From assembly GCA_900128395.1 (NCBI GenBank), contig LT649302.1, positions 1 through 41,399 of the forward strand: a stretch of 41,399 nt of DNA, given 5' to 3'. Numbering within the stretch: the first letter of the stretch is position 1; the number at the start of each line of letters is the position of its first letter. Source of the stretch: Stramenopiles sp. TOSAG23-2 (Eukaryota). Positions 414 through 25,859 of the stretch are shown here, piece after piece. The notes under the pieces were generated by a model. That model was not told the origin of the DNA. It saw only the letters and a program-made list of their open reading frames with translations, and did not search any database. The position numbers were made by a program, and so were the translations under genes.

Positions 414-661
414 ACAACTGGGAGAAAAAAAATGTTGTGTGCACGGCGCTTGTATATTATTTTTTACAGTTCCATTTTTGATTCACTTCTACCTAATTGA
501 ATCTCTTTTCGTTTAATTTCTCCAAAGTCAACATCTAACAACTGGGAGAAAAAAAATGTTGTGTGCACGGCGCTTGTATATTATTTTTTACAGTTCCATT
601 TTTGATTCACTTCTACCTAATTGAATCTCTTTTCGTTTAATTTCTCCAAAGTCAACATCTA
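414..661. repeat. Perfect head-to-tail duplication, 124-bp unit (414-537, 538-661), containing the 3' end of the MORN gene
   Basis: The ACAACTGGGAG...GTCAACATCTA block is read twice consecutively. Confidence 0.95.
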
Positions 662-1154
662 CTGGTGATTCATACTTCCCCATGAAGAAATCACCTTTCC
701 ATTCGACACCATCTGCATCAACATAAACGCCAAATCCGTGCCACTTTCCTTGCTCCCACTCTCCTTCGTATTTTCCAGTATTATTTGGTTGTATATATGT
801 TCCATTACCATGAAACATATTTTCATAAAAATCGCCTTCATATGAAGCACCACTTGCGAAAGTTATTTTGCCTTTCCCATTATACAAATCATTTGCAAAT
901 TCACCTTCATATTTTTCAACACCGTCATCATATATTCCCCACCCATCCCTAATTTTGTTCTCTTCCCCAGTCTCCTTATCTTTGATAATAACATATTCAC
1001 CATCATAATGTTTTCTTCGTATACTTGCATCAAGGCCTGTATTTTCAGCAAATTCAAAATATCCTTTTATACGGTTTACATTTGTAGTAGCAACTGTAGT
1101 ACCTACATTTTCGCTTACATTTTCTTGCAATAGTTGTTCTTCATCATCACTCAT
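588..1154 (-). CDS. MORN-repeat protein (188 aa)
   Basis: Repeated YEGEF/W-x(5)-G-x-G motifs: YEGEFANDLYNGKG, YEGDFYENMFHGNG, YEGEWEQGKWHGFG. Confidence 0.9.
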   Translation of the reverse strand: MSDDEEQLLQENVSENVGTTVATTNVNRIKGYFEFAENTGLDASIRRKHYDGEYVIIKDKETGEENKIRDGWGIYDDGVEKYEGEFANDLYNGKGKITFASGASYEGDFYENMFHGNGTYIQPNNTGKYEGEWEQGKWHGFGVYVDADGVEWKGDFFMGKYESPVDVDFGEIKRKEIQLGRSESKMEL

Positions 1155-1944: not shown

Positions 1945-2192
1945 CTATACTACAATTTGATAAAATAGAAAATTGAACATTCATTTATTCAGTTTAACAA
2001 ATTATATAAAGTAAGAGAGTTGTAGATAAGGATTGTTTACGGATATATACATACATATATATACATATCTATACTACAATTTGATAAAATAGAAAATTGA
2101 ACATTCATTTATTCAGTTTAACAAATTATATAAAGTAAGAGAGTTGTAGATAAGGATTGTTTACGGATATATACATACATATATATACATAT
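1945..2192. repeat. Perfect tandem duplication, 124-bp unit (1945-2068, 2069-2192)
   Basis: CTATACTACAATTTG...TATACATAT occurs twice and the unit ends in a TA/CA microsatellite. Confidence 0.95.
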
Positions 2193-2201
2193 AAATATAT
2201 C

Positions 2202-6015: not shown

Positions 6016-8016
6016 ATGGCGGAAGAAACAAATACGGAGTTGTCTGCGTTAGAAAAAGAATTAGATACTGCATTGAATGACGTGGAAAATGTTAAAGCAC
6101 CAACACGAGAGGAAGCACCACCACCACGTCAAGAGCTAACAGAAGAAGCACCACCACCACGTCAAGAGCTAACAGAAGAAGCACCACCAACACGCCAAGA
6201 GCTAACAGAAGAAGCACCACCACCACCACGCCAAGAATTAACGGATGAAACACCACCACCGCGTCAAGAATTAACAGATGAAACACCACCACCGCGTCAA
6301 GAATTAACAGATGAAGCACCTCCACCAAGAATATCAACTGAAGAGACACCTCCTCCACGTCAAGATATACTAGAAGATGGCGCACCCCCAAGAGAAACGC
6401 TGATCGTAGATGAAGTACCACCTCCGAGAATTACAGAAGAAGAAGTAGCGAAAAATTCTGAAACAGAACCGGAAGAACCCGAAAGACCAGTATCAAACCA
6501 AATATCCAAACGGAAAAAGCGAGAGCAAGATCGTAACGCACGATATAATGAGTTGTTACAAGCGGAGATGGAAAAAGTAGAGAAAAAAGTTGTAAAAAAG
6601 AAGAAAAAAGGCACTGATACAAAGGTAGAAGAAGTGAAAGAAGAGCGTCCTCCATTACAATTAAAAATGTTAGAACGATTGAGGGCATCGAAATCATTCT
6701 GGAAAAATGAAGCTTTAAAACATTTAGGTGAAGAGAAAAAAGAAGATGATAAAAAAAGCATGTCGAAATCACGACCATCCACTACTCAAAGTAGGAAAAA
6801 GGACGATGACAATCGAACCATTTGGCAAGCTGGTGACGATGGCGATGTTAAATTTGTGAAAGAATATGTAATACATAAACGATGGGATGTGAGAAGGCAT
6901 CACGATCGAGGGGGTACGGGAAGCACTCTACTTCACAAAGCATGTTGGAGGAGTCATGTAGGATTAGTAAAATGGTTAATTGAACATGTAAGGCGGCGAT
7001 ATGGAGCCGAAGCAACAGAAACCTACGTCAATAGCCGCGATACGATAATGAATGGAGTGACTCCTTTGATGGAAGCGGCTAGGACACATATTGGAAATTT
7101 ACAAGATAGATTAGCTATCCTAAAGATGCTGATTGATAGCGGCTCTAAAACGCATTATAAAGATGCGCATGGCGATACGTGTTTGCATTGGGCAGCACGT
7201 AATGGGTCGTTTCCAATCATTAAATACCTTTTACATAACACGGAAGGTGCTGTTTTCACTGCGATGGCAGATAATTACGTACATAAACGCCCACTGGATG
7301 TTGCATACGCGTTGAAGGAGAAAAAAAAAGATTTCAATTCAGTAGAATCATATAATCAACTTATGAACATGATGAAGGGTTCTAATGTTCGTATGAAAAT
7401 TACGCGCTTAAAAATGCGAGGGGAAAGGGAGAAGAAAGAGAAGTTAGAACAAGAGCGAGAGGATATAGCAAGAATCGAAGAGGAAGCTAGAATTTCGAAG
7501 GATGCTGCTGAACTTGAATTTTTACGCCAGCGTAGCGCTGCTGAAGCTTTAAGGCAAAAGGAGGAGGATGATTACGTGGAACAAGCTGGAAGGAATGCGA
7601 AAAAAAATGCTGTAGAACATATGAGTACGAGGGAAGGAAAAGCAGAGGTCAAAATACGTTCTCGCGATATAGAAAGGAAAATGCGGGATGAAGCAAAAGA
7701 AAAAGGTGAGAAACCTCCTAAAAAGACATCCAAAATTGCATTTGCAAAGGCTCAAGGTACGTATGTCCATGAAAAAGAGGTTGAAGCGAGGAAACAAGCA
7801 AAAAGAGATTTTAGAAGGAAAAATCCACATGATTTTGATAAAAGAGAATTCGAAGCTATGGAGCAAGCTGCGCAACTTGCCGACCGTAGGTACACAAAGG
7901 TCTTGTCAGACCGTGACAAGCAGTTACGAGATGATATTGATGAATCGAGTGGTTTATGTTCCGAGCCTGAACTAAACCTAAATCCTTACTGTAAAATGTA
8001 CACTGATTGGCTGTAA
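6016..8016 (+). CDS. Ankyrin-repeat / coiled-coil protein with an N-terminal proline-rich repeat (666 aa)
   Basis: Ankyrin motifs GSTLLHKAC, GVTPLMEAA, GDTCLHWAARNG and RPLDVA, followed by an E/K/R-rich helical C-terminus. Confidence 0.88.
   Translation: MAEETNTELSALEKELDTALNDVENVKAPTREEAPPPRQELTEEAPPPRQELTEEAPPTRQELTEEAPPPPRQELTDETPPPRQELTDETPPPRQELTDEAPPPRISTEETPPPRQDILEDGAPPRETLIVDEVPPPRITEEEVAKNSETEPEEPERPVSNQISKRKKREQDRNARYNELLQAEMEKVEKKVVKKKKKGTDTKVEEVKEERPPLQLKMLERLRASKSFWKNEALKHLGEEKKEDDKKSMSKSRPSTTQSRKKDDDNRTIWQAGDDGDVKFVKEYVIHKRWDVRRHHDRGGTGSTLLHKACWRSHVGLVKWLIEHVRRRYGAEATETYVNSRDTIMNGVTPLMEAARTHIGNLQDRLAILKMLIDSGSKTHYKDAHGDTCLHWAARNGSFPIIKYLLHNTEGAVFTAMADNYVHKRPLDVAYALKEKKKDFNSVESYNQLMNMMKGSNVRMKITRLKMRGEREKKEKLEQEREDIARIEEEARISKDAAELEFLRQRSAAEALRQKEEDDYVEQAGRNAKKNAVEHMSTREGKAEVKIRSRDIERKMRDEAKEKGEKPPKKTSKIAFAKAQGTYVHEKEVEARKQAKRDFRRKNPHDFDKREFEAMEQAAQLADRRYTKVLSDRDKQLRDDIDESSGLCSEPELNLNPYCKMYTDWL
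6106..6441 (+). repeat. Coding minisatellite, ~33-bp unit encoding E(E/D)(A/T)PPPRQELT, about 10 progressively degenerate copies
   Basis: Visible in both DNA (GAAGCACCACCACCACGTCAAGAGCTAACAGAA) and protein. The copies carry synonymous differences. Confidence 0.93.
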
Positions 8017-8486: not shown

Positions 8487-11400
8487 TTAATCTTCTTCCA
8501 TCTCTCCAAATTTTTCCACTAGCCTCTCATATTTTCGTTTAATAGCATTGGTTGTGCGTCTCGGATTTTTAAACGTTGCTGCACATGTTTCAAAAGAGTG
8601 CCCATTTTGAATTGCTGCAATCATGCGTTTCATTTGTCTCACCGTCCAGGAGTAATTTGCAGTTTCTTCTAATTGTTCATCTGTAGGATTCAACTTTGCA
8701 GTTCTCATTTTTTCATCTTTATCCTTTCTTCTTTTTAAGCTAAAAAGGTACCTTTTAAGCTTTGGGTATTTCTTCCCCAATCCTTTAAATTTATGATAAC
8801 AAAGCCTATATGTTTTTCCTAAAATTCTGCCTATTTCTTCAAAAGATTTTCCTTCTTTTCGCAATTTAACAAGTGTTTGGATTTGGCTTTTCTTCCAATC
8901 ATTTTTTTTACGGTATTTAACTTTATGTTTTTCGTTCAAAACTGCCTTCAATGTCTTCAAACTTAACGTTGGCACTTTTTTCAACATACGTCTAAATTTC
9001 AAAAAAATGGAATTGGGTGTTTTTTTCAGATGCTTGACTACATCATTAAAATGATAATGACATCTTGCTGCATTGACAAGATACCGAATATCTATTAAAC
9101 TCCAGGCATTAGTATAGGTCAAATCTGCTAAAATACTGTCATCGACTTTTTGAACCTCAGTTCTGCAAATATTTTGCCATATAGAATTGTCCGGTCCTTT
9201 GCTTCTTCTATTAGTTTTGATGTTATTGTCTTCATCATCGCTTTCCAGGTTGGTAGCATCTCTTTCAGTACTAGAATAGACAATATCTTCATCGTCTGAT
9301 GATATATCATCGTTCCACCTAGGTTTTCGAGTTGCTTTTCTATTTACTAAATCATCTGCACCATCATTTACATGTTTCCTAACGTGGTTATTTTTTTTGG
9401 AATAACCATTTCCTAAAACACGGATTTGATTTCGCTTGACATTCGTTCGACGCTCTCCATCATCAAAATCAATATCATATTTCACCCCACGAACTTTATC
9501 AACATAACCACGATGCCACGTTTTCCATTCATTCAGTTTAACCTTAATCCTCGTGCCAGCTTTAAGCCGCTCAGATTTTGGCCCCACGCCTTCCTCCTTT
9601 CCTTGCTCTGTGTAAAATTTGCAAGTATAATCGGATATAACATTTGGGTTCTCTTTATTCATTGATTCGATTTTAGTCAAAAGAAGATGCGAATCTTTAT
9701 GGACACTTCTTGCAATCATCAAAAGGCCTACTGACCTATCTGTTTGATATTTAATTTTTTTAACTTGCATTAAGTTCCACATTGCATTGACTGCAAATCG
9801 AAGATCACTATCTTTCAAATTCATTGGGTCACCTTGGCTGTATTCACCATGCGGGAGTGCATAAACATATTCAAGTGGTATTCTTTCCTCATGATCATCT
9901 TCATTATCATATGAAACTACAATTACACGATTGGGTATGTTGTAACGTACAATATGTGCACGGTACAAACCTGTGAAGGCATTATCCCGTTTGCCACAAT
10001 AAAAATATGGAACTGAAACGACATTCCCAATCACTACAGAATTACTTTGTAAATCCCTTACGCCAATTATTCTTAAACATTCAATAATGTCACACGGCAA
10101 AACTCTTAATTGTTGAATATCACCATCAGAATGTTTGAATTTCACTTTAAGAGTTCCATCATCATTCAACCGTTTTACTTTTGCTTCGTAAAACTCTTGA
10201 TATCCATCTAGACTAGCTTTCCTATATCGAGCATGTACAACTTTACCTACAAGCTTCTCAAGTTTCATTCCCACCATTTCGGACGCATAATGATAACATG
10301 ACATCGCTTCCATGTTTTGAACCCTAAACGCGTGTTCTTTTTGCGCCCGTTTGCAATACATTTTCCTAGTTCGAGCAGCAACTGCGTCTGCAGCTGTTAG
10401 AGTCGTCGTTGTTGTTGTCGTCGTCGTCGTTCTTGTTCTTGTAGTGGTAGTTGTTGGTGCTCTTATTGCTACACGTCGTGATGGCAATGATGCGGCGGAG
10501 TTCGTTCCAGGCATTTCAAGTTGCCGTAGTATTTCACTCCTACTTTTCTTGCGTGGGCGATTATCATACTTTACCTTACTACTACCATTACCCCCTACAT
10601 CCTTATCATACACAGTTGGATTAAATGATACAACCTGTTTGCGTTTTCGTTTTGTATTGCCACGAGTATTTTGAATTATATTGGATTCATCAATCTCTAA
10701 TGATTTTTTGCCAAAAGCATTGTTTGAAGCGGGCAGGTTAAAATCGCTACTTAATGCTTGCTTACTTGTATTGTCTTCGTATGTATCCCCAAACATTTGT
10801 GGTATTTTTTCCTTGACACGTTTTAACTTCACAATAAGAGCCTGTGGTGATCTTTTAAGTTGTTCGCATAGCTTCAAAATACATGTTCCATTTTTTGCAC
10901 CATTAAACAGCACTTTTAAATCTGTTAATGGCCAATGTTGTGTTGCAATACGACTTAGAAGCACCAAATCTAGTTTTCCATATGTACTTGATACAAAATG
11001 AGCCCAAGGTTCATTTTCTGTAAATTTTCGATTATTCATAGTTTTAAACCCCTTGCCTTTAACAACTGGAACTTTTCTATATTTTCGATTATTAACTGTT
11101 ATGCATTGATCAGTATTTTGCAAGTCGTTTTTATTGATATTGTTCCTACTGCTGCTGCTACCACTGCTGCGACTGGTACCATTCTGTAATGGTCGTTTAC
11201 TTGCTTGTGGTCCTCGCCTTATATAAATCGCAGGCGATTTCCTTACCATTGAATCAAAAAATCCAAGATCATCAAAACTTCGAGCAAACATTCTCCGATC
11301 TTTCTCAATCATTCTTCTTGTTTTTACTTGGCATGCTTGTTTTGACTTCGTCGGCAATGCATCGCTTATTTCGTGAAACGTGACACCTTTGTTAACACTA

Positions 11401-13700
11401 TTAATCAGAAATAATATCTCTTCTTTACTCCAAGAGGGATTTGTATAATACAAACAGTGTTTCAGGGCATGATCCTTATCCCAATCAGTCTGTGGATTGT
11501 AATCCTTATTCACAATTTTTTCATCTGCTGGTGGGTATCCCCCTGTCTTCGCTTTCACGTATCCGATATCCCAATCAACGAAACGACCATCATGGTTGTT
11601 TGCTTCGTGTTCCCTTATATGAATTGTCCGCCTACCATACTTTTTCTTGTTCTTTTCTTTCATCTTTTGATAAATCTTTTCTGCATCTCTTTTTTTCTTC
11701 AACTTCTGGGCATTCAATTTCACGGGTATTTCCGGTACAACGGGTGGCGGTACCGGCGGTGGCTTGTCAGATTGGTACCATGATGATCTTGGCGCGTTGA
11801 CTTGTATTTTGTCGGACTTTTTCTTGTTCTTTTCTTTCATCTTTTGATAAATCTTTTCTGCATCTCTTTTTTTCTTCAACTTCTGGGCATTCAATTTCAC
11901 GGGTATTTCCGGTACAACGGGTGGCGGTACCGGCGGTGGCTTGTCAGATTGGTACCCTGATGATCTTGGTGCGTTGACTTGTATTTTGTCGGACTTGTTT
12001 TTATCATTATCGACATCACTAGATAATTGTAGCATGGGTAATTCTAATGTTGAAGTCGATGCGGACGGTGGTAGCGGGGCACAGGTATCTTTTTTCAAAG
12101 GATTTTGATAATTGATCATTTCATCTAAATCATCATCAATAGCAAATACAATGCCATCGTTTCCATTCCCATCATTATCGACTGGATTTGCATTAGTAGA
12201 ATTGCTACCTGGTGGTTTATCAAGAATTTCTTCAATGTTGTAAAAATCATCGCCATCCCTGTACACAGTACTATTCCCATACGGAACAATACCATCAGTT
12301 TCACTCTCACCCATCATCATTTCATTTTCATTGTGAGACACAAAACTATTGTCATCTTTTTTATTATAATTGTTATCCACAAAATGGCGTGAGGTTTTTT
12401 TCTTTGTAATGTGTACATTAGTCACATTAAACATACCTCTGGTTCCACCATCACTAATATTAACATCAACATCTGACGATGTATTACCCATGTATGCATG
12501 GGTTGATTTTTTTTTCTCCATAATTTGTACATTAGAATCATTGAACATACCTCTCCCATTACTGGTCAGAGATGGAGAAGTCGATTCCACTCCCGTCGTA
12601 GGATTACACAACACATGTCGTAGACTGGAAAACGATGGTACAACCTTTGGCCCACTCGCAACCCTTGGCTTTTTATTTACCCTCTTCTTTTGAACATTTT
12701 TGAACGTGTTCTTTGCCCTCTTCTTTTTAACATTTTTGAACGTGTTCTTTACCCTCTTCTTCTTAACATATCTAAGACTACTATTACTTGGTTGCATCAT
12801 ACCCCGTCCAACGTTTCTTACGGGTGGTTTTATATTGGTTCGTCTTGTAAATGCCGAAGTGAAATTTGAAGTTTTCTTACCACCATATATCGACATAGTT
12901 GGTACATCCCTTTTATTTTGCCTCAAATATTGGGCACGTAATTTTTTCTGTTTTTTTATAGCAGAGTCCCAAGCTTTTCTCATTGACTTTTTTGTCTCTA
13001 CTGACATTAATTTACCAAGATTATTAGCCTTTGGCTCTATCAGCGAGAACGATTCTGTTTTAGAATTATCAATAATTGGAGAGGAGGAACTAATACCGCC
13101 GCCGCCAATAGAAGAAGAAAGAATAGGTTTATTAATATTTAAATATGGAGCAACTATGTTGGAACCAGCCGAATTACCCTCCAATTGATGGATATTTGCA
13201 TTGTTATTTGCTAATACAGATGATGTCGGCAAGTGGAGTGCGGTGTTCGTTGCATTTATGTGTTGATCATAGGTTGGGCTTAAATTGTACGTTGTGGATG
13301 ATAGCGTTTGTTGTGGCAATACCACAGAGTTTAACAGTGGAGCTTGTAATTGCGTATTTTGCATTATAGGCGTGTTTTTCACAATACTATTATTATTACT
13401 CAGAGCAGGTGCGGGTTGTATGTTTGCGTTGTTAACGAGGATTGTTAAATTATTTGGAACCGAAGTAACACCAGCATTAATACGCGGTGCTGCAGGGAAT
13501 GGATTTGTGTAATTGAACGAATGAACAACCGGATTATTTATCGTGTGGTATACAGGAGGAGGTACATAGTCATTTAAACCTCTTGCTTGCATAGTCCTTA
13601 ATTGTATAATCTGTTGTTCCTGGCGGCGCAACTGTGTTTGAACCATTTGTTGCTGCCAGCTCAATTGCTGTGGTGGTGATTGTCCATGTTCTAAATACAT
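8487..13700 (-). CDS. Large nuclear protein with five SANT/Myb-like and three Tudor/Agenet-like domains (1737 aa)
   Basis: Myb/SANT-like starts WSKEEILFL, WPLTDLKVL, WSLIDIRYL, WKKSQIQTL and WTVRQMKRM. Tudor-like segments GKVVHARY..FYEAKV..DGTLKVKF, GNVVSVPY..YRAHI..VVSYDNED and GTRIKVK..WHRGYV..YDIDFDDG. Low-complexity Q/N/P N-terminus and basic NLS-like tracts. Confidence 0.82.
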   Translation of the reverse strand: MYLEHGQSPPQQLSWQQQMVQTQLRRQEQQIIQLRTMQARGLNDYVPPPVYHTINNPVVHSFNYTNPFPAAPRINAGVTSVPNNLTILVNNANIQPAPALSNNNSIVKNTPIMQNTQLQAPLLNSVVLPQQTLSSTTYNLSPTYDQHINATNTALHLPTSSVLANNNANIHQLEGNSAGSNIVAPYLNINKPILSSSIGGGGISSSSPIIDNSKTESFSLIEPKANNLGKLMSVETKKSMRKAWDSAIKKQKKLRAQYLRQNKRDVPTMSIYGGKKTSNFTSAFTRRTNIKPPVRNVGRGMMQPSNSSLRYVKKKRVKNTFKNVKKKRAKNTFKNVQKKRVNKKPRVASGPKVVPSFSSLRHVLCNPTTGVESTSPSLTSNGRGMFNDSNVQIMEKKKSTHAYMGNTSSDVDVNISDGGTRGMFNVTNVHITKKKTSRHFVDNNYNKKDDNSFVSHNENEMMMGESETDGIVPYGNSTVYRDGDDFYNIEEILDKPPGSNSTNANPVDNDGNGNDGIVFAIDDDLDEMINYQNPLKKDTCAPLPPSASTSTLELPMLQLSSDVDNDKNKSDKIQVNAPRSSGYQSDKPPPVPPPVVPEIPVKLNAQKLKKKRDAEKIYQKMKEKNKKKSDKIQVNAPRSSWYQSDKPPPVPPPVVPEIPVKLNAQKLKKKRDAEKIYQKMKEKNKKKYGRRTIHIREHEANNHDGRFVDWDIGYVKAKTGGYPPADEKIVNKDYNPQTDWDKDHALKHCLYYTNPSWSKEEILFLINSVNKGVTFHEISDALPTKSKQACQVKTRRMIEKDRRMFARSFDDLGFFDSMVRKSPAIYIRRGPQASKRPLQNGTSRSSGSSSSRNNINKNDLQNTDQCITVNNRKYRKVPVVKGKGFKTMNNRKFTENEPWAHFVSSTYGKLDLVLLSRIATQHWPLTDLKVLFNGAKNGTCILKLCEQLKRSPQALIVKLKRVKEKIPQMFGDTYEDNTSKQALSSDFNLPASNNAFGKKSLEIDESNIIQNTRGNTKRKRKQVVSFNPTVYDKDVGGNGSSKVKYDNRPRKKSRSEILRQLEMPGTNSAASLPSRRVAIRAPTTTTTRTRTTTTTTTTTTLTAADAVAARTRKMYCKRAQKEHAFRVQNMEAMSCYHYASEMVGMKLEKLVGKVVHARYRKASLDGYQEFYEAKVKRLNDDGTLKVKFKHSDGDIQQLRVLPCDIIECLRIIGVRDLQSNSVVIGNVVSVPYFYCGKRDNAFTGLYRAHIVRYNIPNRVIVVSYDNEDDHEERIPLEYVYALPHGEYSQGDPMNLKDSDLRFAVNAMWNLMQVKKIKYQTDRSVGLLMIARSVHKDSHLLLTKIESMNKENPNVISDYTCKFYTEQGKEEGVGPKSERLKAGTRIKVKLNEWKTWHRGYVDKVRGVKYDIDFDDGERRTNVKRNQIRVLGNGYSKKNNHVRKHVNDGADDLVNRKATRKPRWNDDISSDDEDIVYSSTERDATNLESDDEDNNIKTNRRSKGPDNSIWQNICRTEVQKVDDSILADLTYTNAWSLIDIRYLVNAARCHYHFNDVVKHLKKTPNSIFLKFRRMLKKVPTLSLKTLKAVLNEKHKVKYRKKNDWKKSQIQTLVKLRKEGKSFEEIGRILGKTYRLCYHKFKGLGKKYPKLKRYLFSLKRRKDKDEKMRTAKLNPTDEQLEETANYSWTVRQMKRMIAAIQNGHSFETCAATFKNPRRTTNAIKRKYERLVEKFGEMEED
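11639..11996. repeat. In-frame 177-bp (59-aa) tandem duplication with two substitutions
   Basis: SDKIQVNAPRSS(G/W)YQ...KEKNKKK occurs twice, with differences at 11780/11957 and 11793/11970. Confidence 0.95.
12676..12769. repeat. Coding 36-bp repeat, ~2.6 copies (VKKKRVKNTFKN; NLS-like)
   Basis: Period-36 repeat seen in DNA and protein. Confidence 0.85.
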
Positions 13701-14438: not shown

Positions 14439-15056
14439 ATGATAAAGAAAAAAATAAATAATTTTATTATATTATTGATTTTATCAATATTTTTGTCATT
14501 TGCTAACTTCAGTGTCTTTGCACATTTACGACGTCAACAAAAAAGTAATATAAATAATAAATACGAATGGAAAGATGGTTATCGAGATACATCATATGAC
14601 CCAGGTTATGGTCTTGACATGGGTGTAACAGGGAAGGATATGTATAGTGGATTGGGTCATATCAATGGTTTTGATAAGAAAATTTGTTCCTTTGGCGATA
14701 GTGGTAACGATGCGAAGAATATTTTTGATATAGGACATAAACTTGCTATGAACCATCGATATCGAGATTCAGCTGATTGTTTTCAACATGCTATAAAAAA
14801 TTGGTGGAAAGTTGTACGTAATACAAACAACCCTATTGGTACTAATAATAATGCAAGACAGCGATTTCAACCCGCAGGGACTGCCGATGTACAAAATGTA
14901 GAAAGGCACTTGAAAGGGATGTGGGAAAGACAGCGAGATAGAATACCAAAGAGTCAACAAAAGAGAATAAATGGTGTAATGGCTACTGATAAAAATCAAG
15001 TTCCACCGCAATTACTGTGGCTAAAAGAACAGAAAGCAAAAAATGCTGGAACATAA
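14439..15056 (+). CDS. Secreted protein of unknown function (205 aa)
   Basis: Basic-hydrophobic signal peptide ending ..VFA, and a single TPR-like segment (AKNIFDIGHKLAMNHRYRDSADCFQHAIK). Confidence 0.75.
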   Translation: MIKKKINNFIILLILSIFLSFANFSVFAHLRRQQKSNINNKYEWKDGYRDTSYDPGYGLDMGVTGKDMYSGLGHINGFDKKICSFGDSGNDAKNIFDIGHKLAMNHRYRDSADCFQHAIKNWWKVVRNTNNPIGTNNNARQRFQPAGTADVQNVERHLKGMWERQRDRIPKSQQKRINGVMATDKNQVPPQLLWLKEQKAKNAGT

Positions 15057-15645
15057 TATCTAGAAGAAACAAAAGGTGCCGTTTTATTTAAAATATATGT
15101 ATATACATAGCACAATATATATAGAATGTATTGTCTACGAATTCGTATATATATATATATTTACTATCATAGATATATGACCCGGTTTATCTGAGAGAGA
15201 CTTTCCAGTTGTCAAATAAATTTTTAGTATACTAATAAGTACAAATCACACATATTTTACTATCAAACCTCGTGCTTTATAATTCCTAGATCTCCCAAAA
15301 ATCATGAATTTTTGGAAAATTTGTGACATTTTTATTTTTAATCCAAGAAGATGATATAAACGCACTCTTGGAATTGAGCATTTTTATAAAGGGCACGACG
15401 GTGATTTTATACATATAAAGAATATTTTTTTTGATCAACAGAAAGTGAAATGACACAATGGTGAAGTTGTACAATAATGATATTATTTGCCTCAGTTAAA
15501 TATCATACGAACGTATGATATGCCTGTGAAATATTCTTTTGAAGAGTAGGGAATTATTTCATATTTGAGTAAATTAAAAAATAAAAACTATGTACGACAC
15601 ACTTCTCTATCCTCTTCCCGATTTTAGGCATGCTGTTCAGAGAGC

Positions 15646-17301
15646 TTAATCTTCACGATCCATTTTCTTTCTCTTTTTCTTCCTATTCATTTGATCTTGA
15701 TGAGAAAATTGCCTTCGTCTTATACCACCTGGACGTCGTACAACATGTTGATAATTAATAAGAAGTTGTACTTTTTCATAAACATCATGTACTAAATTTG
15801 TATCATCTAGTTGACGTAGTGTAGTATGAACACTTTTATCATGATAATAAACAGAATATTCATGTTCTGGTATTTCATCAAATGGCAATTTGATTTCCCA
15901 TGGTTCGCCTTGTTTTGCTAATTCTTCTTTTTGTTGCTCTTCCTTCGTTTGTGCATTGTCACCATCCACTTTTTTCTCACTTGTTTTTGGTTTTGCATCG
16001 ATCATGAAAACGGATGTACAATATGCCCAAAGTTTTGCTGCTTCCGAACCGAACGATCCATGTGTGCCACCTAGTAAAAGGCACGGAACTTTATTTCTAT
16101 TAAATACTAAATCTTTGAGCACTTTCATGCACTTGACCAAACCACGTGAAGTTAAATTAAAATCACCATTTATATCACCACCTAAAGCACTTGGATCGAC
16201 AACGCATACAACTACTTGCGGTTCATATACTTTACGAATTTCCTCCATAGTACTTTCAAATGATTTGAAATATATTTCATCAGTTACACCACGAGCCATT
16301 GGAAGATTCAAATGGAATTTCTTCCCTTGGCCGTGACCATTATCACGCACATCACCACTAGCCATCTTCTCTGAATGCATGGACAATGTCACGATGCGAT
16401 TCGATGTGTAAAATGCTTCCTCCACCGCTTCGCAATGATGATAACTAAAACTAACATATAAAATTCGATCAAATTTTTCTAACAATTCTAGGCAAACTAA
16501 TACCGAATCATTAATAAAATTACCTCCACAACTTTCATCTCGTTTTGCTAATTGCATTCCACCCATCCAATTGATGGCAACATCTGCTCTACCTTTTGTA
16601 ATCAAGCGAGCCGCTTCAATAGATGCGCCGCAAACTAGTGTACAAGCTTCCAAAGTCCCTGGTTTTACTATAGTATCCTCGGATGATGGATTGTTGAAAT
16701 TAAACCTTTTCTGTAAATGAGCTGGAACGATATTTGGATTTTCAGGATGTAAACATAACTCTCTTAAATGATAGACATATTTATCAGAATGATATTTGGT
16801 CATATATTGTGGTGCCAAAGTTTTTGGTTGTAACACTTGCATGCAAATATTGTCCATCATGCCATATGCTTTTAATAATTCGTATGTCAACTTAAAACGT
16901 TGATGACTCGGTAAACCAGGCACAAAAGCTTCCATAGTATTAATAGTTTCATCGTAAAAATATGCAATACGACGTGGATCTTTAGTCAATGCTTCATACT
17001 CTTTCCTCGCTTCGTTGGAGACAACCGACAACGGTTCTTTTCCTAACAAGTTATCAACATTAATACCTTCCAAACGTGGGTCGGTGGGTGGAACATACTC
17101 ATTGCTTGAATATGGTTTATTGCCCGCTGCCGAATTATATTTTATTTGTGCCTCTTTGAATAATTTTTTTTGCTCTTGCGTTCTTTTATCATGAACTTCT
17201 TTCATAACATCCCCATCTTTGGTTGCTGTTGCGTCCGTAACATTCGTTTCCTCCGTCGTCTTGTCAGGGGCACTCTCACTGTTCTCTTCTGTTTGCATCA
17301 T
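15646..17301 (-). CDS. Class I (RPD3/HOS2-type) histone deacetylase homolog with a degenerate active site (551 aa)
   Basis: HDAC scaffold motifs: YHSDKYV, GASIEAA, AINWMGG, AVEEAFYTSNRIVTLSMH, GQGKKFHLNLPM, FNLTSRG. The catalytic residues are substituted. Confidence 0.9.
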   Translation of the reverse strand: MMQTEENSESAPDKTTEETNVTDATATKDGDVMKEVHDKRTQEQKKLFKEAQIKYNSAAGNKPYSSNEYVPPTDPRLEGINVDNLLGKEPLSVVSNEARKEYEALTKDPRRIAYFYDETINTMEAFVPGLPSHQRFKLTYELLKAYGMMDNICMQVLQPKTLAPQYMTKYHSDKYVYHLRELCLHPENPNIVPAHLQKRFNFNNPSSEDTIVKPGTLEACTLVCGASIEAARLITKGRADVAINWMGGMQLAKRDESCGGNFINDSVLVCLELLEKFDRILYVSFSYHHCEAVEEAFYTSNRIVTLSMHSEKMASGDVRDNGHGQGKKFHLNLPMARGVTDEIYFKSFESTMEEIRKVYEPQVVVCVVDPSALGGDINGDFNLTSRGLVKCMKVLKDLVFNRNKVPCLLLGGTHGSFGSEAAKLWAYCTSVFMIDAKPKTSEKKVDGDNAQTKEEQQKEELAKQGEPWEIKLPFDEIPEHEYSVYYHDKSVHTTLRQLDDTNLVHDVYEKVQLLINYQHVVRRPGGIRRRQFSHQDQMNRKKKRKKMDRED

Positions 17302-18482
17302 CCTGTTACTATTTCTATGTCTTTTACTTCTTTTTTAATATATATATATATATATAGACGATGTATATATTTTGACATAGTATTCGTAGTATCTATATAT
17401 TTGTTAACTTATTTTTATTTTGTTAACTCTATTATTCATTACCGTAGTGGTAGTAATTTTTTTAATAATAAACAACAGAAGAGGAGTGGAGGCTGGCTGG
17501 CCTGACTGGGCTGGAGAAGGGAGGGACGTGAGTAGTCTAAGAAAGGAGCATACTGTGTAATATTTTGATTTTCATGGCATTCCATCCAGCATTCCATCAC
17601 ATCATTCCAGGCCTTAGGCATTCCACAGATTCTTCTTCTTTTTGGTTGGCTGTACTCTGGTACTGTAGGAAGTAACTGCTTCATGCTATATATTTTTTAA
17701 AAGAACGTTATTTGAGTTATACCAGTCCTGGCAGTAAACACGTTACATGAGACACATTTTAATTTCAAAAGGTATATGAAAATAGAAAAAGAAACGACAG
17801 AAAGATCATGCATGTATGTATAAACAAACAAACGTAGATAAGAGAATAAATATATATATATATATATATATATGTAAAGATGAATGATAAACAACAAGAA
17901 CAAAATTTTCCCTCTTCTTCCATAATTAAAGATGTGGATAATAAGTTTCTTTAAGCAAAATATACCCTGATGTAGAAATGACATTATTCATGATCAAATC
18001 GACTAGTTGTGGATTGCCTTTTCTACTCATTTTGTATGGCAAAAGCTATTAAAATACTACGTATATTGAATGTTGGTATAATATTTGTATCTATGTAGAT
18101 TAATATTGTACGATATGTGTTTTATTTTTATTTTTTTGTTAACTAGTTTTTAATGTATAAATTTTTTTCTCCCTCTTTATATATATGAGGCTTATGTGGT
18201 GATCATATATATAAATACATTGAGCTTAGTAAATATAGTAATAAATATATGTCATATAAAATATATATTGTGTGTGTATAAACATATATGTGATGTGTGT
18301 GGTGTTTGTTCCTTGTCAATGCTAAAACAATGCTAAATACACGGCACATGACGGATTTTATACCATATGGATTGAACAAAATCTTACACATCATAGAAAC
18401 AACTGGTCATACTTTTTTTCAGAGAGAACTCTGTTTTTTTAAAATTATTATAAACCTTAAACTATGCAAATATGAATATTAA

Positions 18483-21435: not shown

Positions 21436-22176
21436 ATGAAATCGATTATTACCATGTATATGTACTACCTTTCTATTATTATTACTACTTTGATGATACT
21501 AATAATAAAAATGAATACTGTATATGGACGAGAATTAGATCCAGAAATGTATGTACCAGATCCAAATGCACCGGAAGAAGAAATGCCAGCAGAATTTAGT
21601 GAAGATATTGAATGGGAAAAAGCACATGAAAGTTCTAATTTAGCGTTAGGAATGGCATGTTTGTATGGCGAAACAGATATGGTACGTGAAGCATTAGTAA
21701 ATGGACAAATGTTAGAGATGGATCATAGTGGCTTTGCAATTCTTTCTGAACATGAGCCATTTCATCATTCCAAAAAAAAAATCATGTATGATCGTGACTG
21801 GAGATTTCATCATAAAAATGAATTGAATGACACCTGCTTGCATCGTGCTGTTATGAGTAGGGAATACGACATTGCTAAATTGTTATTGGAACATGGATGG
21901 GATCCAAATGCGGTTGATAAAAATGGACATACACCGTTGGATGTAGCCCATTCACGACACGATGAACTTCTTTCACATTTATTAGAGGATCGTGGAGCTT
22001 TAGCAGAGCATCATCGTAGAAATATGGATAAATTTCGAAGACACAAGGAAGAACATACTCGAATAAGAGTGGATCATCATGAAAGGTTTGCGCATCAACA
22101 TATGCATGAACATGCTGAACATGGGGCACCAGACCATGGTCATTGGAGAAAAAATGCTAAGAAAATGGATCTTTGA
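21436..22176 (+). CDS. Secretory-pathway ankyrin-repeat protein with a His-rich tail (246 aa)
   Basis: Hydrophobic N-terminus, ankyrin motifs DTCLHRAV..LLLEHGWDPNAVDKNGHTPLDVA, and a His-rich C-terminus. Confidence 0.85.
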   Translation: MKSIITMYMYYLSIIITTLMILIIKMNTVYGRELDPEMYVPDPNAPEEEMPAEFSEDIEWEKAHESSNLALGMACLYGETDMVREALVNGQMLEMDHSGFAILSEHEPFHHSKKKIMYDRDWRFHHKNELNDTCLHRAVMSREYDIAKLLLEHGWDPNAVDKNGHTPLDVAHSRHDELLSHLLEDRGALAEHHRRNMDKFRRHKEEHTRIRVDHHERFAHQHMHEHAEHGAPDHGHWRKNAKKMDL

Positions 22177-22917: not shown

Positions 22918-23997
22918 TTAATAATCAACATTATTCCAAACACTATCTTTAGCAAATTTCCATTCTACTGGGCCAACGATTTTTCCATCTTCAAATCTAC
23001 CTTTAAATGAATCTCCATTAGGCAATAACATTCTCCCAATTCCATGACGTCTGCCATTATTAAAATTACCTTCATAAACATAACCCGAACTAGCACATGT
23101 AAAAATGCCTAATCCAGAGCGAGAATCATCAACCCAATTTCCCTCATATCTATTTCCATTTGCAAACGTTAATGTGCCTCTTCCATTTGCCATATCTCGT
23201 GCCCATTCTCCTTCGTAACGATCTTGATTTTTATATTGTAAAATACCATCTCCACTTTTTACACCATTGACAAAATTTCCTGTATAAGTATCACCTGATC
23301 GATATTTTAATACACCAAAACCAGATGCACGATCAGTTTTCCATGAGCCTTGATACACGTCACCGGATACATATGTTAACTTTCCTTCCCCTTCTTTCAC
23401 ATCATTTTTAAAATCACCTTCGTATATATTGGAATTTGGAAATACATATTTTCCTTTTCCAGACATTTTTGAGTCTTCCCATTCACCTTCATATATACCT
23501 CCATCTTGGTATTGATAACGACCAAAACCTGCCATTTTACCACCTGCCCATTCACCTTCATATGCTTCAACTGGATTTCCAGATTGATCTACATATGTTA
23601 CTTTTCCACTACCTTCTCGTTTGTCGTTATTCCATTGTCCCGAATATACATCACCACTTGCATAGGTATATGTCCCTATTCCATGCATTTTACCATTATT
23701 CCACTGTCCATCATATTTATCTCCATCCGAGAAAAACAATGTGCCTTGCCCATCAATAATGCCATTTTTCCAATTGCCAACGTACCTATTACCATTACTA
23801 TAAATTGCTTCTCCTTGACCATCAATTTTATCATCCCTAAACTCACCCGTATATTGACCACCATCTACATAAAAATATGTTCCCATTCCATGCCTACGAC
23901 CAGCAACCCATTGTCCTTCATATATTTCATTATTTGCATAAACCAATTTGCCTTTCCCGTGCATCTGGCCCTCTTTAATCTCACCGGTATACTGCAT
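22918..23997 (-). CDS. MORN-repeat protein (359 aa, ~14 repeats)
   Basis: Continuous 23-aa YEGxWxxGxxxGxG repeats. Confidence 0.93.
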   Translation of the reverse strand: MQYTGEIKEGQMHGKGKLVYANNEIYEGQWVAGRRHGMGTYFYVDGGQYTGEFRDDKIDGQGEAIYSNGNRYVGNWKNGIIDGQGTLFFSDGDKYDGQWNNGKMHGIGTYTYASGDVYSGQWNNDKREGSGKVTYVDQSGNPVEAYEGEWAGGKMAGFGRYQYQDGGIYEGEWEDSKMSGKGKYVFPNSNIYEGDFKNDVKEGEGKLTYVSGDVYQGSWKTDRASGFGVLKYRSGDTYTGNFVNGVKSGDGILQYKNQDRYEGEWARDMANGRGTLTFANGNRYEGNWVDDSRSGLGIFTCASSGYVYEGNFNNGRRHGIGRMLLPNGDSFKGRFEDGKIVGPVEWKFAKDSVWNNVDY

Positions 23998-24259: not shown

Positions 24260-25859
24260 TTAATGATGATCTTGAAAATGTAAATCCAATGGAATATCAT
24301 TACCGGCATCAACAAATCCAACTAATAACATTCGTTTGCCATTTGTAATTTCATATCCACCATGACGAAGTTTACCACTATGAATTAACACATCACCACG
24401 TTGTATAGTATATACTTTTCCATATACACCTTCCATTTTTACTAAATTAGTAGTAATATCATTTTCATTGTTCTTGGTAATAATCATATTGTTTTGTACA
24501 ACTTGATCTTGTTCAAAAAATGTACCACCACCAACAAAATCATTTTCTGAATTTAATAAAACATTGAATGAGATAACAGAACCATCACGGTGTATACCAA
24601 CTGATCGTTGTTGTGGTTCCTTATTTCTTTCTGCATCATGCGCATCCTTTACATCGAGACACGCCGTAGTAGTGTTATTATGCTGATTATTATTATTATT
24701 ATTATTTTTATTAATCGCATCATCTGATGCATTGTAATAAACAAAAAATAAATCACGAAATTTAAATGTATCCACTGCAAATTTATGATTTTTACTTAAA
24801 ATTGGAAATAAACGATTTCGCAATATATTTTTCAACCATTTGTCTAATTCAGGCATTTTATTAACACGAACATCTGTAGTTGCATAACCACGATGACGAT
24901 CACTTAACCATCCATTTTTATTTGTATATTCTTTGACACCTTTCAATAAATAATCACATTCTTCAAATGTAAATTGTTGTTTTAATGAATATGGAATTTT
25001 CAAAGATGGATGTATTGACCACATTTTCTTAATACGTTTATTACCATTTTCATAATCACATTTACGTTTTTTCGTTAACCATTCTGTCGTATAACATAAA
25101 TTGTTTTTGGAACACTTTTCAGGGGTGTTATCTTTATTTCCTGTTGTTGATTTCATTAATGGTGATGACGATGACGACGATAATAAGAAATTTAAACTAT
25201 TTGTATGTTTATGCATTGCTGCTAATATTGCTGGTGTATTTTCATCCCAATCAATAACATTTACATTTGCACCATAATTATTTACCAATATTTCTATTAC
25301 TTCACATCCTTGTGGTTCACTTGCTAATGCTGCAAAATGAAGAAATGTTTTACCACCACCTTGTATACTTTTCATTTGCAATTGTAAATCAATAGTCGTT
25401 GTATTATTTAAAAACTTTGCAAATGTATTTTCATCTGATATTTGTTTTTTCATTTTTATTACCTTGTATACTTTTCATTTGCAATTGTAAATCAATAGTC
25501 GTTGTATTATTTAAAAACTTTGCAAATGTATTTTCATCTGATATTTGTTTTTTCATTTTTATTAAAATGGCCTGAACTAAATTTACCATACCATATTCAC
25601 ACGCATAATGTAATGGGCGATATCCATAATCATGCCTGACATTATAATCTACATCTACTCCATTATTTACTATATCGCATGCCAAATCTTCATCATATAA
25701 AGATGTTGCGTATATAATAGGTGGCAAACCTTTTATTGTTTTCTCTTTCAAACTGACTTTATTTTTTATTAAATTCAATAATTCTTCTTCATTTTCAATA
25801 ACAGTGGAACGAAGACTATCATCATTACTATTATTACCATCATTAGCGATTGATGTCAT
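24260..25859 (-). CDS. Ankyrin-repeat + Fe(II)/2-oxoglutarate dioxygenase (PLOD/prolyl-hydroxylase-like), interrupted by a 103-bp duplication
   Basis: Ankyrins RPLHYACEYG, KTFLHFAA and NTPAILAA. Oxygenase motifs YATTDV, HRD (HxD), FNVLLN..DFVGGGT, RHGGYEITNGKR. Removing one repeat copy fuses ORFs 25431-25892 and 24260-25453. The first ATG is at 25859. Confidence 0.87.
25358..25563. repeat. Perfect tandem duplication, 103-bp unit (25358-25460, 25461-25563), frameshifting
   Basis: ACCTTGTATAC...CATTTTTATT occurs twice, and KMKKQISDENTF...SIQG appears in both ORFs. Confidence 0.96.

What the first reader, a model, noticed from the sequence alone, without database searches (positions are those of the whole stretch)
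16050..16570. Class I HDAC pseudoenzyme: catalytic His pair, two Zn ligands and the catalytic Tyr are lost in an intact ORF
Seen versus the established HDAC1 motifs: GGLHHAK becomes GGMQLAK (H140/H141 lost); ASGFCY becomes SCGGNF; YIDIDIHHGDG becomes YVSFSYHHCEA (Zn ligand D176 lost, H178 kept); QCGSDSLSGD becomes VVDPSALGGD (D264 lost); LGGGGY becomes LGGTHG (Y303 lost). Scaffold motifs (VEEAFY, NLPM, FNLT) and a 551-codon frame are preserved, which suggests selection on a non-catalytic role. Inference: a scaffold, acyl-lysine reader or dominant-negative subunit of Sin3/SANT-type complexes. Fully dead class I paralogs are rarely described.
Basis: partly seen in the sequence, partly recalled or inferred. 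Interest (0 to 1): 0.72.

Follow-up and report, generated by a model that had tools for sequence, protein, structure and literature searches.

The report
Dead histone deacetylase look-alike, marine protist
An uncultured marine protist keeps an intact gene for a protein with the full shape of a class I histone deacetylase but without the residues needed for catalysis, so it is a conserved non-enzyme relative of a well-known chromatin enzyme.

Summary
Window 15646-17301 (minus strand) is an intact 551-codon ORF. It matches Pfam PF00850 (E 7e-45) and human HDAC2 (E 1.6e-58). The AlphaFold model superposes on HDAC2 at TM 0.94. Both catalytic histidines, two of three zinc ligands, the catalytic tyrosine and the tunnel phenylalanines are replaced or deleted.

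It is not a decaying pseudogene. A syntenic orthologue (66% amino-acid identity) carries the same replacements. Synonymous sites between the two are saturated (fourfold sites identical 38 of 125), while the domain has pN 0.16. Contigs of poly(A) or oligo-dT RNA libraries from three studies carry the unspliced ORF.

Two more distant relatives (about 43% identity) also lack D176, D264 and Y303 but keep one or both histidines. The catalytic centre therefore eroded stepwise in an older clade.

The lysine-tunnel aromatics are gone, and the positions I recall as inositol-phosphate and SANT contacts are lost.

The closest published case is Arabidopsis HDA7, a younger and milder loss. The scan had not noted this protein before on other DNA.

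Verdict: a real, selectively maintained pseudo-deacetylase; function unknown, most likely a non-catalytic nuclear binding role.

The parts
15646..17301 (-). Complete 551-codon ORF of the HDAC-fold pseudoenzyme, with no intron
   Evidence: ORF list. The same 551-aa ORF is found in metagenome contig L001 and in protein P0001. RNA-library contigs are colinear with the window over 15662-17297 with no joints.
16975..17301 (-). N-terminal extension, residues 1-109, absent from canonical class I HDACs. Its second half (DPRLEGI...KDPRR) is conserved in the orthologue.
   Evidence: The alignment to HDAC2 starts at residue 110. win-L002 identity here is 45 of 84 aligned residues. The model has low to moderate confidence here, with pLDDT block means of 38-76.
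16003..16974 (-). HDAC (arginase/deacetylase fold) domain, residues 110-433
   Evidence: Pfam PF00850, E 7.1e-45, residues 132-412. HDAC2 6wbw, E 1.6e-58, residues 110-433. Most pLDDT blocks in this range exceed 90. Foldseek best hit is HDAC2 3max, TM-score on target 0.94, rmsd 2.0.
16543..16563 (-). GGMQLAK: the former His-His charge-relay motif (H140->Q250, H141->L251)
   Evidence: Alignment to HDAC2. Column table. Identical in L002, P0002 and P0003.
16516..16533 (-). SCGGNF: the former ASGFCY tunnel wall (F150->G260, C151->N261, Y152->F262)
   Evidence: F150->G is invariant in all four clade members.
16426..16458 (-). YVSFSYHHCEA: the former YIDIDIHHGDG metal-binding strand (D174->S284, D176->S286, H178 kept as H288)
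16174..16203 (-). VVDPSALGGD: the former QCGxDSLSGD motif (D264->S371; R270->I377, L271->N378 just downstream)
   Evidence: Population variants A372V and N378H are seen in RNA contigs.
16057..16074 (-). LGGTHG: the former LGGGGY motif (catalytic Y303->G415)
   Evidence: Gly at this column in all four clade members.
15709..15732 (-). PGGIRRRQ: a C-terminal basic motif specific to the clade (PGAIRR[RK]Q in L002, P0009, P0157; none found in 18 other rows checked)
   Evidence: Regular-expression check on 22 rows.
15664..15684 (-). RKKKRKK basic tail. It resembles a nuclear localisation signal (inference only).
   Evidence: Sequence. Identical in L002. No localisation predictor was run.

Best explanation
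The gene encodes a selectively maintained pseudo-deacetylase that is present in RNA libraries. The protein keeps the whole class-I HDAC fold but cannot bind the catalytic zinc in the canonical way or carry out the canonical deacetylation chemistry.

Shown:
- The fold is intact.
- H140, H141, D176, D264 and Y303 are lost, as are the tunnel residues D99, F150 and F205.
- The same state is present in an orthologue that has diverged to saturation at silent sites.
- It belongs to a four-lineage clade in which D176, D264, Y303 and F150 are lost in all members, while the histidines decay lineage by lineage.

Inferred: it works by binding rather than by catalysis. It is probably nuclear, because of a conserved RKKKRKK tail. 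It may act as a structural or regulatory partner in chromatin complexes, using surfaces other than the canonical lysine tunnel.

Between the window protein and its orthologue, the segment around the former active site (residues 216-300) is the best-conserved part. The remodelled site may therefore itself be the binding surface in this sub-lineage.

My odds: no canonical deacetylase activity, 0.9. Functional protein under selection, 0.9. Non-catalytic nuclear or chromatin binding role, 0.5.
For: Fold:
- PF00850, E 7.1e-45.
- HDAC2, E 1.6e-58 over residues 110-433.
- AlphaFold2 mean pLDDT 80.4, with 285 residues at 90 or more.
- Foldseek best hit HDAC2 3max, TM 0.94 on the target, rmsd 2.0.

Loss of catalytic residues.

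Selection:
- Orthologue L002 is syntenic. Its downstream 196-aa ORF matches window 14439-15056.
- 340 of 515 aligned residues are identical, while only 38 of 125 fourfold sites keep the same base.
- Nei-Gojobori for the domain: pN 0.164, pS 0.865.
- The window and the 99%-identical L001 differ by 4 synonymous and 5 non-synonymous changes.
- Of 19 variants in RNA contigs, 8 are synonymous and 11 non-synonymous, with no stop. With 337 synonymous and 1316 non-synonymous sites, pN/pS is about 0.35.

Presence in RNA libraries:
- 18 of 20 listed runs hold at least part of the stretch. 10 are on record as RNA, from 9 studies.
- In 3 of the 4 runs laid (X1, X9, X13: poly(A) or oligo-dT libraries of three studies), contigs cover 15662-17297 without joints.

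Clade:
- P0009 (43% identity, E 6e-84) and P0157 share clade motifs, including PGAIRR[RK]Q.
- Both lack D176, D264 and Y303.
- The four rows form a clade with SH-aLRT 100.

Pattern of constraint over 324 domain positions:
- 72 are invariant in the four rows and equal to the canonical consensus.
- 19 vary within the clade where 97 canonical rows are at least 90% conserved. Most of these are residues I recall as catalytic, metal-binding or pocket-lining (H140, H141, G149, C151, D174, D176, H178, G180, D181, D264, D269, G301, G302).
- win-L002 identity is highest in residues 216-300, at 78 of 85.
Against: - No activity, metal content or localisation was measured.
- Model coordinates could not be inspected, so a relocated metal site cannot be excluded. 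Candidate ligands are H288, H289, C258, C290, E291 and D369, all identical in the orthologue.
- RNA evidence comes from assembled contigs only. These cannot prove transcription, because DNA can be present in RNA libraries. The fourth run laid (X10) gave no cover of the ORF at 95% likeness.
- One low-depth X1 contig has an extra T at 17163, inside a run of A (table 4). If real, this would be a frameshift.
- pS above 0.75 reflects a shift in composition (GC3 0.27 against 0.50). No numerical dN/dS can therefore be given, only that dN is far below dS.
- The nuclear and chromatin role rests on a basic tail and on family resemblance alone.
- No partner is known, and the window's whole genome is not held. 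I could not check whether an active class I paralogue exists.
Confidence: 0.7

Rival explanations
1. Acetyl- or acyl-lysine reader. The dead pocket would still admit a modified lysine and hold it without cleaving it, as has been proposed for class IIa HDACs.
For: The fold and the pocket-forming loops are modelled with high confidence. The segment around the old site is the most conserved part between the window protein and L002, at 78 of 85 residues. G149 and H178 are kept.
Against: The residues that I recall as clamping the lysine chain and binding the substrate backbone are gone: F150->G, the F205 loop is three residues shorter with no aromatic residue, D99->P, L271->N. Zinc, which polarises the acetyl carbonyl, has lost two of its three ligands. 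The pocket residues differ between the two sub-clades, so no common reading site is conserved.
Confidence: 0.1
2. Dominant-negative or scaffold subunit that takes the HDAC1/Rpd3 place in SANT- or Sin3-type corepressor complexes.
For: The best PDB sequence matches are HDAC2 and HDAC1 (201.9 and 199.5 bits), then Rpd3 (174.1). The less derived clade member P0009 ranks HDAC2 231.5 > Rpd3 215.7 > HDAC3 197.8 > HDAC8 193.1. P0009 and P0157 keep R270.
Against: At the three basic positions that I recall binding inositol phosphate at the HDAC1-SANT interface, the window has a gap (K31), I377 (R270) and S419 (R306). R306 is S or T in all four clade members. The trees do not place the clade inside the HDAC1/2/3 group, which is closed at SH-aLRT 99 without it. 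No corepressor gene could be looked for, because no genome is held.
Confidence: 0.1
3. Neofunctionalised enzyme. A new metal or catalytic site built from migrated residues (H288, H289, C258, C290, E291, D369) would carry out a different hydrolysis.
For: These six potential ligands cluster in the old active-site segments and are identical in the window protein and L002. That segment is under the tightest constraint. A review abstract notes that some pseudoenzymes have migrated catalytic residues (PMC10211241; only the start of the abstract was seen, in the listing).
Against: None of C258, C290, E291 or D369 is conserved in P0009 or P0157, which have A/G, S, D and G at those columns. Any such site would therefore be confined to one sub-lineage. 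No general base and no transition-state tyrosine remain. The geometry could not be checked, because no coordinates were available.
Confidence: 0.07
4. Decaying pseudogene, or an assembly artefact that merely looks intact.
For: Many catalytic residues are lost. One low-depth RNA contig shows a 1-base insertion in a run of A.
Against: The 551-codon frame is intact in the window, in L001 and in P0001. The orthologue's frame is intact once one canonical GT-AG intron is removed. 66% amino-acid identity contrasts with saturated silent sites. The ORF is present in RNA libraries of three studies.
Confidence: 0.02

Closest known systems
Human HDAC1/HDAC2 and yeast Rpd3 (active class I histone deacetylases)
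   Same: Same fold over the whole catalytic domain and the following C-terminal helices. About 31% identity to HDAC2. Scaffold motifs VEEAFY, NLPM and FNLT are kept. 72 of 324 domain positions are invariant in the clade and equal to the canonical consensus.
   Different: Lacks both catalytic histidines, two of the three zinc ligands, the catalytic tyrosine and the tunnel aromatics. Also lacks the basic positions that I recall as the inositol-phosphate site. Has a 109-residue N-terminal extension, an insert of about 30 residues after residue 433, and a basic rather than acidic tail. It does not branch inside the HDAC1/2/3 group.
Arabidopsis thaliana HDA7 (PDB 8wzl), a naturally inactive class I HDAC (PMC10920125; abstract and passages read)
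   Same: A class I fold with zinc ligands replaced. The paper reports no zinc in the crystal and no activity in vitro. It is therefore the same kind of thing: an intact, inherently inactive class I paralogue.
   Different: According to the paper, HDA7 changes only the XDXH motif, to XGXP (D->G and H->P). It is confined to Brassicaceae and probably derives from HDA6. Here H178 is kept, while D176, D264, H140, H141 and Y303 are lost. The loss is shared by relatives at 43% identity. HDA7 is not the nearest solved chain (163.7 bits against 201.9 for HDAC2). The origin is independent and probably much older.
Class IIa HDACs (HDAC4/5/7/9), called 'pseudodeacetylases' (PMC12747566 and PMC12383505; only the starts of the abstracts were seen, in the listings)
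   Same: HDAC-fold proteins that have lost the catalytic tyrosine and are thought to act mainly as scaffolds or signal transducers.
   Different: Those abstracts describe a single Tyr-to-His change and low residual activity. From recall, the zinc site is intact in class IIa. Here the zinc site and the His pair are gone too, and the protein is class-I-like rather than class II.

Membership tests
Class I (Rpd3/HDAC1-type) histone deacetylases | Hist_deacetyl (PF00850) domain with the arginase/deacetylase fold | tested here: met
   Pfam E 7.1e-45, 154 bits against a cut-off of 27.9. Foldseek TM 0.94 to HDAC2.
Class I (Rpd3/HDAC1-type) histone deacetylases | Closer to class I members than to other HDAC classes | tested here: met
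   The 60 best of 131 PDB sequence matches are all HDAC1, HDAC2, HDAC8, Rpd3, Clr6 or AtHDA7. In a 31-row tree rooted on AcuC-like rows, the protein lies inside the branch holding the HDAC8 and HDAC1/2/3 groups (SH-aLRT 100). No class II or class IV rows were in the tree.
Class I (Rpd3/HDAC1-type) histone deacetylases | Zinc ligands Asp-His-Asp (D176, H178, D264 of HDAC1) | tested here: not met
   S286, H288, S371: one of three is kept.
Class I (Rpd3/HDAC1-type) histone deacetylases | Tandem catalytic histidines (H140, H141) | tested here: not met
   Q250 and L251.
Class I (Rpd3/HDAC1-type) histone deacetylases | Catalytic tyrosine (Y303) in the GGGGY motif | tested here: not met
   G415 in LGGTHG. 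There is no Tyr in the loop. F417 lies two residues later.
Class I (Rpd3/HDAC1-type) histone deacetylases | Deacetylase activity | not testable with these tools
   Needs a bench assay.
HDAC1/2/3 subgroup that is activated by SANT corepressors and inositol phosphate | Basic residues at the K31, R270 and R306 positions (residue list recalled, not read here) | tested here: not met
   Gap, I377 and S419. The subgroup is closed without this protein at SH-aLRT 99. P0047 served as the HDAC3 marker.
AtHDA7-type inactive HDACs | XDXH changed to XGXP; Brassicaceae-restricted descendants of HDA6 (PMC10920125) | tested here: not met
   The motif here is FSYH, so the His is kept. AtHDA7 (8wzl) scores 163.7 bits, below HDAC2, HDAC1 and Rpd3. 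AtHDA7 itself was not in my trees.
Class IIa HDAC pseudodeacetylases | Tyr-to-His change with an otherwise intact zinc site (recalled) | tested here: not met
   The zinc ligands D176 and D264 are lost and Y303 is Gly.

The most novel reading that the evidence does not exclude
The window protein may be one tip of an old, multi-lineage and so far undescribed branch of class I HDAC-fold pseudoenzymes in microbial eukaryotes.

In site-heterogeneous trees the four-lineage clade groups with six to eight further cluster representatives. All of them have substituted catalytic or zinc residues (SH-aLRT 86-91; a 14-row all-dead clade in FastTree). An AU test rejects pulling the four away from them into the HDAC1/2/3 group (p 0.0007).

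If this reflects a single ancient loss and not long-branch attraction, many protists would carry a dedicated non-catalytic HDAC paralogue. Such a paralogue could regulate an active HDAC in the way that, as I recall, trypanosomatid 'prozymes' regulate their active paralogues.
Probability: 0.35. Interest if true: 0.6.

Novelty: new variant of a known kind. Interest (0 to 1): 0.45.

Why it matters
Class I HDACs are among the most conserved chromatin enzymes. The only naturally dead class I member I found in print (Arabidopsis HDA7) is young and restricted to one plant family.

The gene described here is a more thoroughly disabled version. It has nevertheless been kept under purifying selection through saturating divergence, and it has relatives that show intermediate stages of active-site decay. 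That makes it a natural series for asking two things: what an HDAC fold does when it cannot deacetylate, and which HDAC surfaces matter apart from catalysis.

The practical limit is that the host is uncultured. One more distant clade member (P0009) is held by NCBI and JGI on a 79-kb contig, so a sequenced organism may offer a way to the bench.

Tried and rejected
I could not ask whether an active HDAC1/Rpd3 gene coexists.
- Accession numbers and organisms for P0001-P0003 and P0009 are therefore unknown.
- Word-indexed homologue searches with the protein and with a four-row profile found only three close relatives plus canonical HDACs. They missed P0009, which only the exhaustive search found.
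- The ESM Atlas returned only generic HDAC and HDAC8 clusters, which was uninformative.
- Rfam on the whole window gave no match.
- Earlier-findings look-ups by words, by sequence and by place found nothing on this protein.
- RNA cover: the bins 17356-17731 upstream have no cover in any of the four runs. Bins 15476-15663 have almost none. X10 has none on the ORF.
- The X1 loose end at 15662 (a T-run on the plus strand) lies inside the A-rich lysine codons. I do not read it as a poly(A) site.
- The first large MAFFT run timed out and was redone with a faster mode.
- The AU test on the 60-row set did not finish in two calls. I replaced it with a 31-row set.
- Literature searches for kinetoplastid DAC2, for protist or oomycete inactive HDACs and passages of the oomycete HDAC survey PMC5112689 gave no description of a dead class I clade.
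- A link to the 1737-aa ORF with weak Myb/SANT hits (8487-13700) was considered and dropped. Its scores are below the Pfam cut-offs, another gene lies between, and neighbourhood means little in eukaryotes.
- No complex-prediction job was sent, because no partner is known.
Full report
**What is there**

Window 15646-17301 on the minus strand is one uninterrupted 551-codon ORF. It lies in an AT-rich (about 27-41% GC), gene-dense eukaryotic stretch.

Earlier notes of this scan describe the genome as that of an uncultured marine protist. The runs that hold the gene are marine or seawater libraries. No whole genome is held for the window.

**Checking the observation**

The protein matches Pfam PF00850 over residues 132-412 (E 7.1e-45). 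It matches human HDAC2 over residues 110-433 (E 1.6e-58).

- GGMQLAK for GGLHHAK
- SCGGNF for ASGFCY
- YVSFSYHHCEA for YIDIDIHHGDG
- VVDPSALGGD for QCGADSLSGD
- LGGTHG for LGGGGY

VEEAFY, NLPM and FNLT are kept.

HDAC1 residue numbers are recalled, not read here. When I set the first catalytic His of an HDAC2-like row (P0013) to 140, the other catalytic residues fell at 141, 176, 178, 264 and 303. So H140->Q, H141->L, D176->S, H178 kept, D264->S, Y303->G.

- D99->P
- F150->G
- C151->N
- D174->S
- L271->N
- The loop carrying F205 is shortened by three residues and holds no aromatic residue.

I aligned 173 rows: 171 fetched proteins, the window protein and the spliced orthologue. In this set 137 rows carry all five of H140, H141, D176, H178 and D264, and 137 carry Tyr303. 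In 97 canonical rows these positions are 100% conserved.

**Fold**

An AlphaFold2 model was built on a 64-row alignment. It has mean pLDDT 80.4 and pTM 0.79, and most blocks between residues 110 and 433 are above 90.

Foldseek puts HDAC2 first (3max, TM 0.94 normalised to the target, rmsd 2.0, 31% identity). HDAC1, Rpd3, HDAC8, HDAC3 and AtHDA7 follow.

The C-terminal part (residues 434-551) still corresponds to the helices that follow the catalytic domain in HDAC1/2. This is my reading of the sequence, not a tool alignment. An insert of about 30 residues interrupts it. It ends in PGGIRRRQ and an RKKKRKK tail.

I could not measure the pocket.

**Not a pseudogene**

A metagenome scan found two loci:
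- L001, 99% identical, carries the same 551-codon ORF.
- L002 is 64% identical in its best segment.

L002 carries one canonical intron (gtaagt...ag, 1439-1518) right after LLGG, which the window gene lacks. With the intron removed the frame is open to a homologous C-terminus.

L002 is syntenic. Its downstream 196-aa ORF matches window ORF 14439-15056.

Across 515 aligned codons, 340 residues are identical. At fourfold-degenerate sites within identical residues, only 38 of 125 third bases agree, which means silent sites are saturated. The Nei-Gojobori proportions for the HDAC domain are pN 0.164 and pS 0.865.

pS exceeds 0.75 because the two genes differ in composition (GC3 0.27 against 0.50). 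I therefore give no numerical dN/dS, only that dN is far below dS.

L002, P0002, P0003 and P0010 carry exactly the same replaced motifs.

Closer variants:
- Window against L001: 4 synonymous and 5 non-synonymous differences.
- 19 single-base variants in RNA contigs: 8 synonymous, 11 non-synonymous, no stop. With the site counts, pN/pS is roughly 0.35.
- One low-depth contig has an extra T inside a run of A at 17163. I take it for a homopolymer error but cannot prove it.

**RNA libraries**

18 of 20 listed runs hold at least part of the stretch. 10 are on record as RNA, and they come from 9 studies.

I laid four runs from four studies. In three of them (oligo-dT or poly(A) libraries), contigs cover 15662-17297 colinearly and with no joints. 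The longest is a 1215-base contig. The fourth run (X10) gave no cover of the ORF.

Contigs cannot prove transcription or give the strand. This is good but not conclusive evidence of expression, and it agrees with an intron-less gene.

**Relatives and the history of the loss**

The exhaustive representative search gave 3379 hits at E<=1e-3. After the orthologue cluster (P0002), the best hit is P0009 (43% identity, E 6e-84). Canonical HDACs follow at 35-40%.

P0009 and its 59%-identical relative P0157 share many clade-specific motifs with the window protein, including the C-terminal PGAIRR[RK]Q. That motif was found in 4 of the 22 rows checked, namely these four.

Both lack D176, D264, Y303 and F150. 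P0009 keeps HH, and both keep the FPGTG loop and R270. P0157 has QH and has also lost H178.

The four lineages form a clade with SH-aLRT 100 in two IQ-TREE runs under LG+C20.

Constraint over the 324 domain positions:
- 72 are invariant in the four rows and equal to the canonical consensus.
- 7 are invariant but different: A59L, F150G, Y152F, I160C, G182A, Y303G, R310K.
- 19 vary within the clade where canonical rows are at least 90% conserved. Most of these are residues I recall as catalytic, metal-binding or pocket-lining.

That is the signature of a fold kept for another purpose while the catalytic centre drifts. The window's lineage is the most eroded of the four.

Between the window protein and L002, however, residues 216-300 around the old site are the most conserved segment, at 78 of 85. 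In this sub-lineage the remodelled site may have acquired its own constraint.

**Position among HDACs**

By sequence score the window protein ranks HDAC2 201.9 > HDAC1 199.5 > Rpd3 174.1 > HDAC8 166.1 ≈ Clr6 164.1 ≈ AtHDA7 163.7 bits.

P0009 ranks HDAC2 231.5 > Rpd3 215.7 > HDAC3 197.8 > HDAC8 193.1 > AtHDA7 186.1.

Trees:
- The first tree used 120 rows. I kept rows filling at least 270 of the 324 domain columns and dropped P0001, P0002 and P0011 myself. FastTree placed the four in a 14-row clade made only of rows with substituted catalytic residues (support 95), next to the HDAC8 group.
- In a 60-row subset that I chose, the wider dead group had only SH-aLRT 86, and its position was unresolved.
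- A 31-row subset was rooted on AcuC-like rows. The HDAC8 group (99) and the HDAC1/2/3 group (99; P0047 is HDAC3-type) are each closed without the four.
- In that 31-row tree the four join six other dead rows (91) and then two more (86). This dead group is sister to HDAC1/2/3 at 80.
- An AU test rejects a tree that puts the four with HDAC1/2/3 and away from the other dead rows (log-likelihood 21.98 lower, p 0.0007).

Caveats: the group was named after seeing the tree. These are long branches, several with deviant composition. The row set was retrieved with a dead query and is therefore enriched for dead sequences. No class II or IV rows and no AtHDA7 were included.

I read this as follows. The protein is class I in the broad sense. 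It is not a member of the HDAC1/2/3 or HDAC8 subgroups. It possibly belongs to a larger old pseudoenzyme branch.

Other dead rows are scattered among canonical rows elsewhere in the 60-row tree, which suggests independent losses too (P0023, P0027, P0041, P0072, P0081, P0167).

**How it most likely works**

Shown: the canonical zinc site, the His-His relay, the transition-state tyrosine and the lysine tunnel are gone. The fold is under strong purifying selection.

Inferred: the protein acts by binding. The conserved RKKKRKK tail suggests the nucleus, though no predictor was run.

- The SANT-type dominant-negative role is disfavoured because K31 is a gap, R270 is Ile and R306 is Ser. That these three residues contact inositol phosphate is my recollection of the HDAC1-MTA1 and HDAC3-SMRT structures, not something read here.

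A generic scaffold or regulator role remains the best guess.

A new metal site made of H288, H289, C258, C290, E291 and D369 cannot be excluded without coordinates. These residues are not shared with P0009 or P0157.

**Comparison with what is known**

Eight full-text searches found one naturally inactive class I HDAC, Arabidopsis HDA7. According to its paper (PMC10920125; abstract and passages read):
- XDXH is changed to XGXP.
- There is no zinc in the crystal and no activity in vitro.
- It is confined to Brassicaceae.
- The authors call it the first characterised inherently inactive HDAC.

Class IIa HDACs are called pseudodeacetylases because of a Tyr-to-His change (only the starts of the abstracts were seen, in the listings).

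I found no description of a dead class I clade in protists. Passages of an oomycete HDAC survey (PMC5112689) do not mention one. Supplements were not consulted.

The scan's own earlier notes hold nothing on this protein.

**Verdict**

The finding is real: a selectively maintained class-I-type HDAC pseudoenzyme. Its loss of the active site is independent of the one published case, older, and more complete. Its role is unknown but probably non-catalytic.

I rate it as a new variant of a known kind and of moderate interest. Interest would rise if the wider dead clade proves to be a single old family.

Noticed in passing
window 15194-15475: Many short, high-depth contigs (46-74 bases, word depth up to 117) from all four RNA runs pile up here, between the two convergent genes. 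This includes the run that does not cover the HDAC-like ORF. Recurrent loose ends occur at 15443 and 15473. There is no Rfam match, no fold better than shuffles for 15360-15480 on either strand, and no second copy in the window. Unexplained. It may be a piece shared with an abundant transcript or a repeat elsewhere.
   Followed up: partly
L002 1439-1518 versus window about 16066: The orthologue has an 80-base GT-AG intron directly after the LLGG codons, while the window gene is intron-less there. This is an intron presence/absence difference between orthologues. Gene callers read through the intron and gave truncated proteins (P0002, P0003, P0010) with a spurious tail.
   Followed up: yes
window 14439-15056 (+) and L002 2151-2741 (-): A 205-aa ORF has a hydrophobic N-terminus that looks like a signal peptide and no Pfam family. 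It is conserved and syntenic (tail to tail with the HDAC-like gene) in the orthologous contig.
   Followed up: partly
window 2157-4983 (+): A sortilin/Vps10 gene is split into two overlapping ORFs in different frames (2157-3536 and 3409-4983). Each matches a successive part of PF15902. The overlap holds a run of nine A, so this may be a frameshift, an assembly error or a short intron.
   Followed up: partly
window 8487-13700 (-): A 1737-aa ORF has two weak Myb/SANT-like hits below the Pfam cut-offs (21.6 and 21.1 bits). It lies two genes downstream of the HDAC-like gene. No link is claimed.
   Followed up: no
proteins P0023, P0027, P0030, P0041, P0072, P0081, P0167: Further cluster representatives have one to five substitutions at the five core catalytic positions. 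In the 60-row tree most of them sit among canonical HDAC rows, outside the main dead group. This suggests that active-site loss has happened repeatedly in HDAC paralogues from environmental sequence data.
   Followed up: partly
window 588-1154 (-), 22918-23997 (-), 6016-8016 (+), 21436-22176 (+), 24260-25453 (-): The window is rich in MORN-repeat and ankyrin-repeat proteins. This is context only.
   Followed up: no
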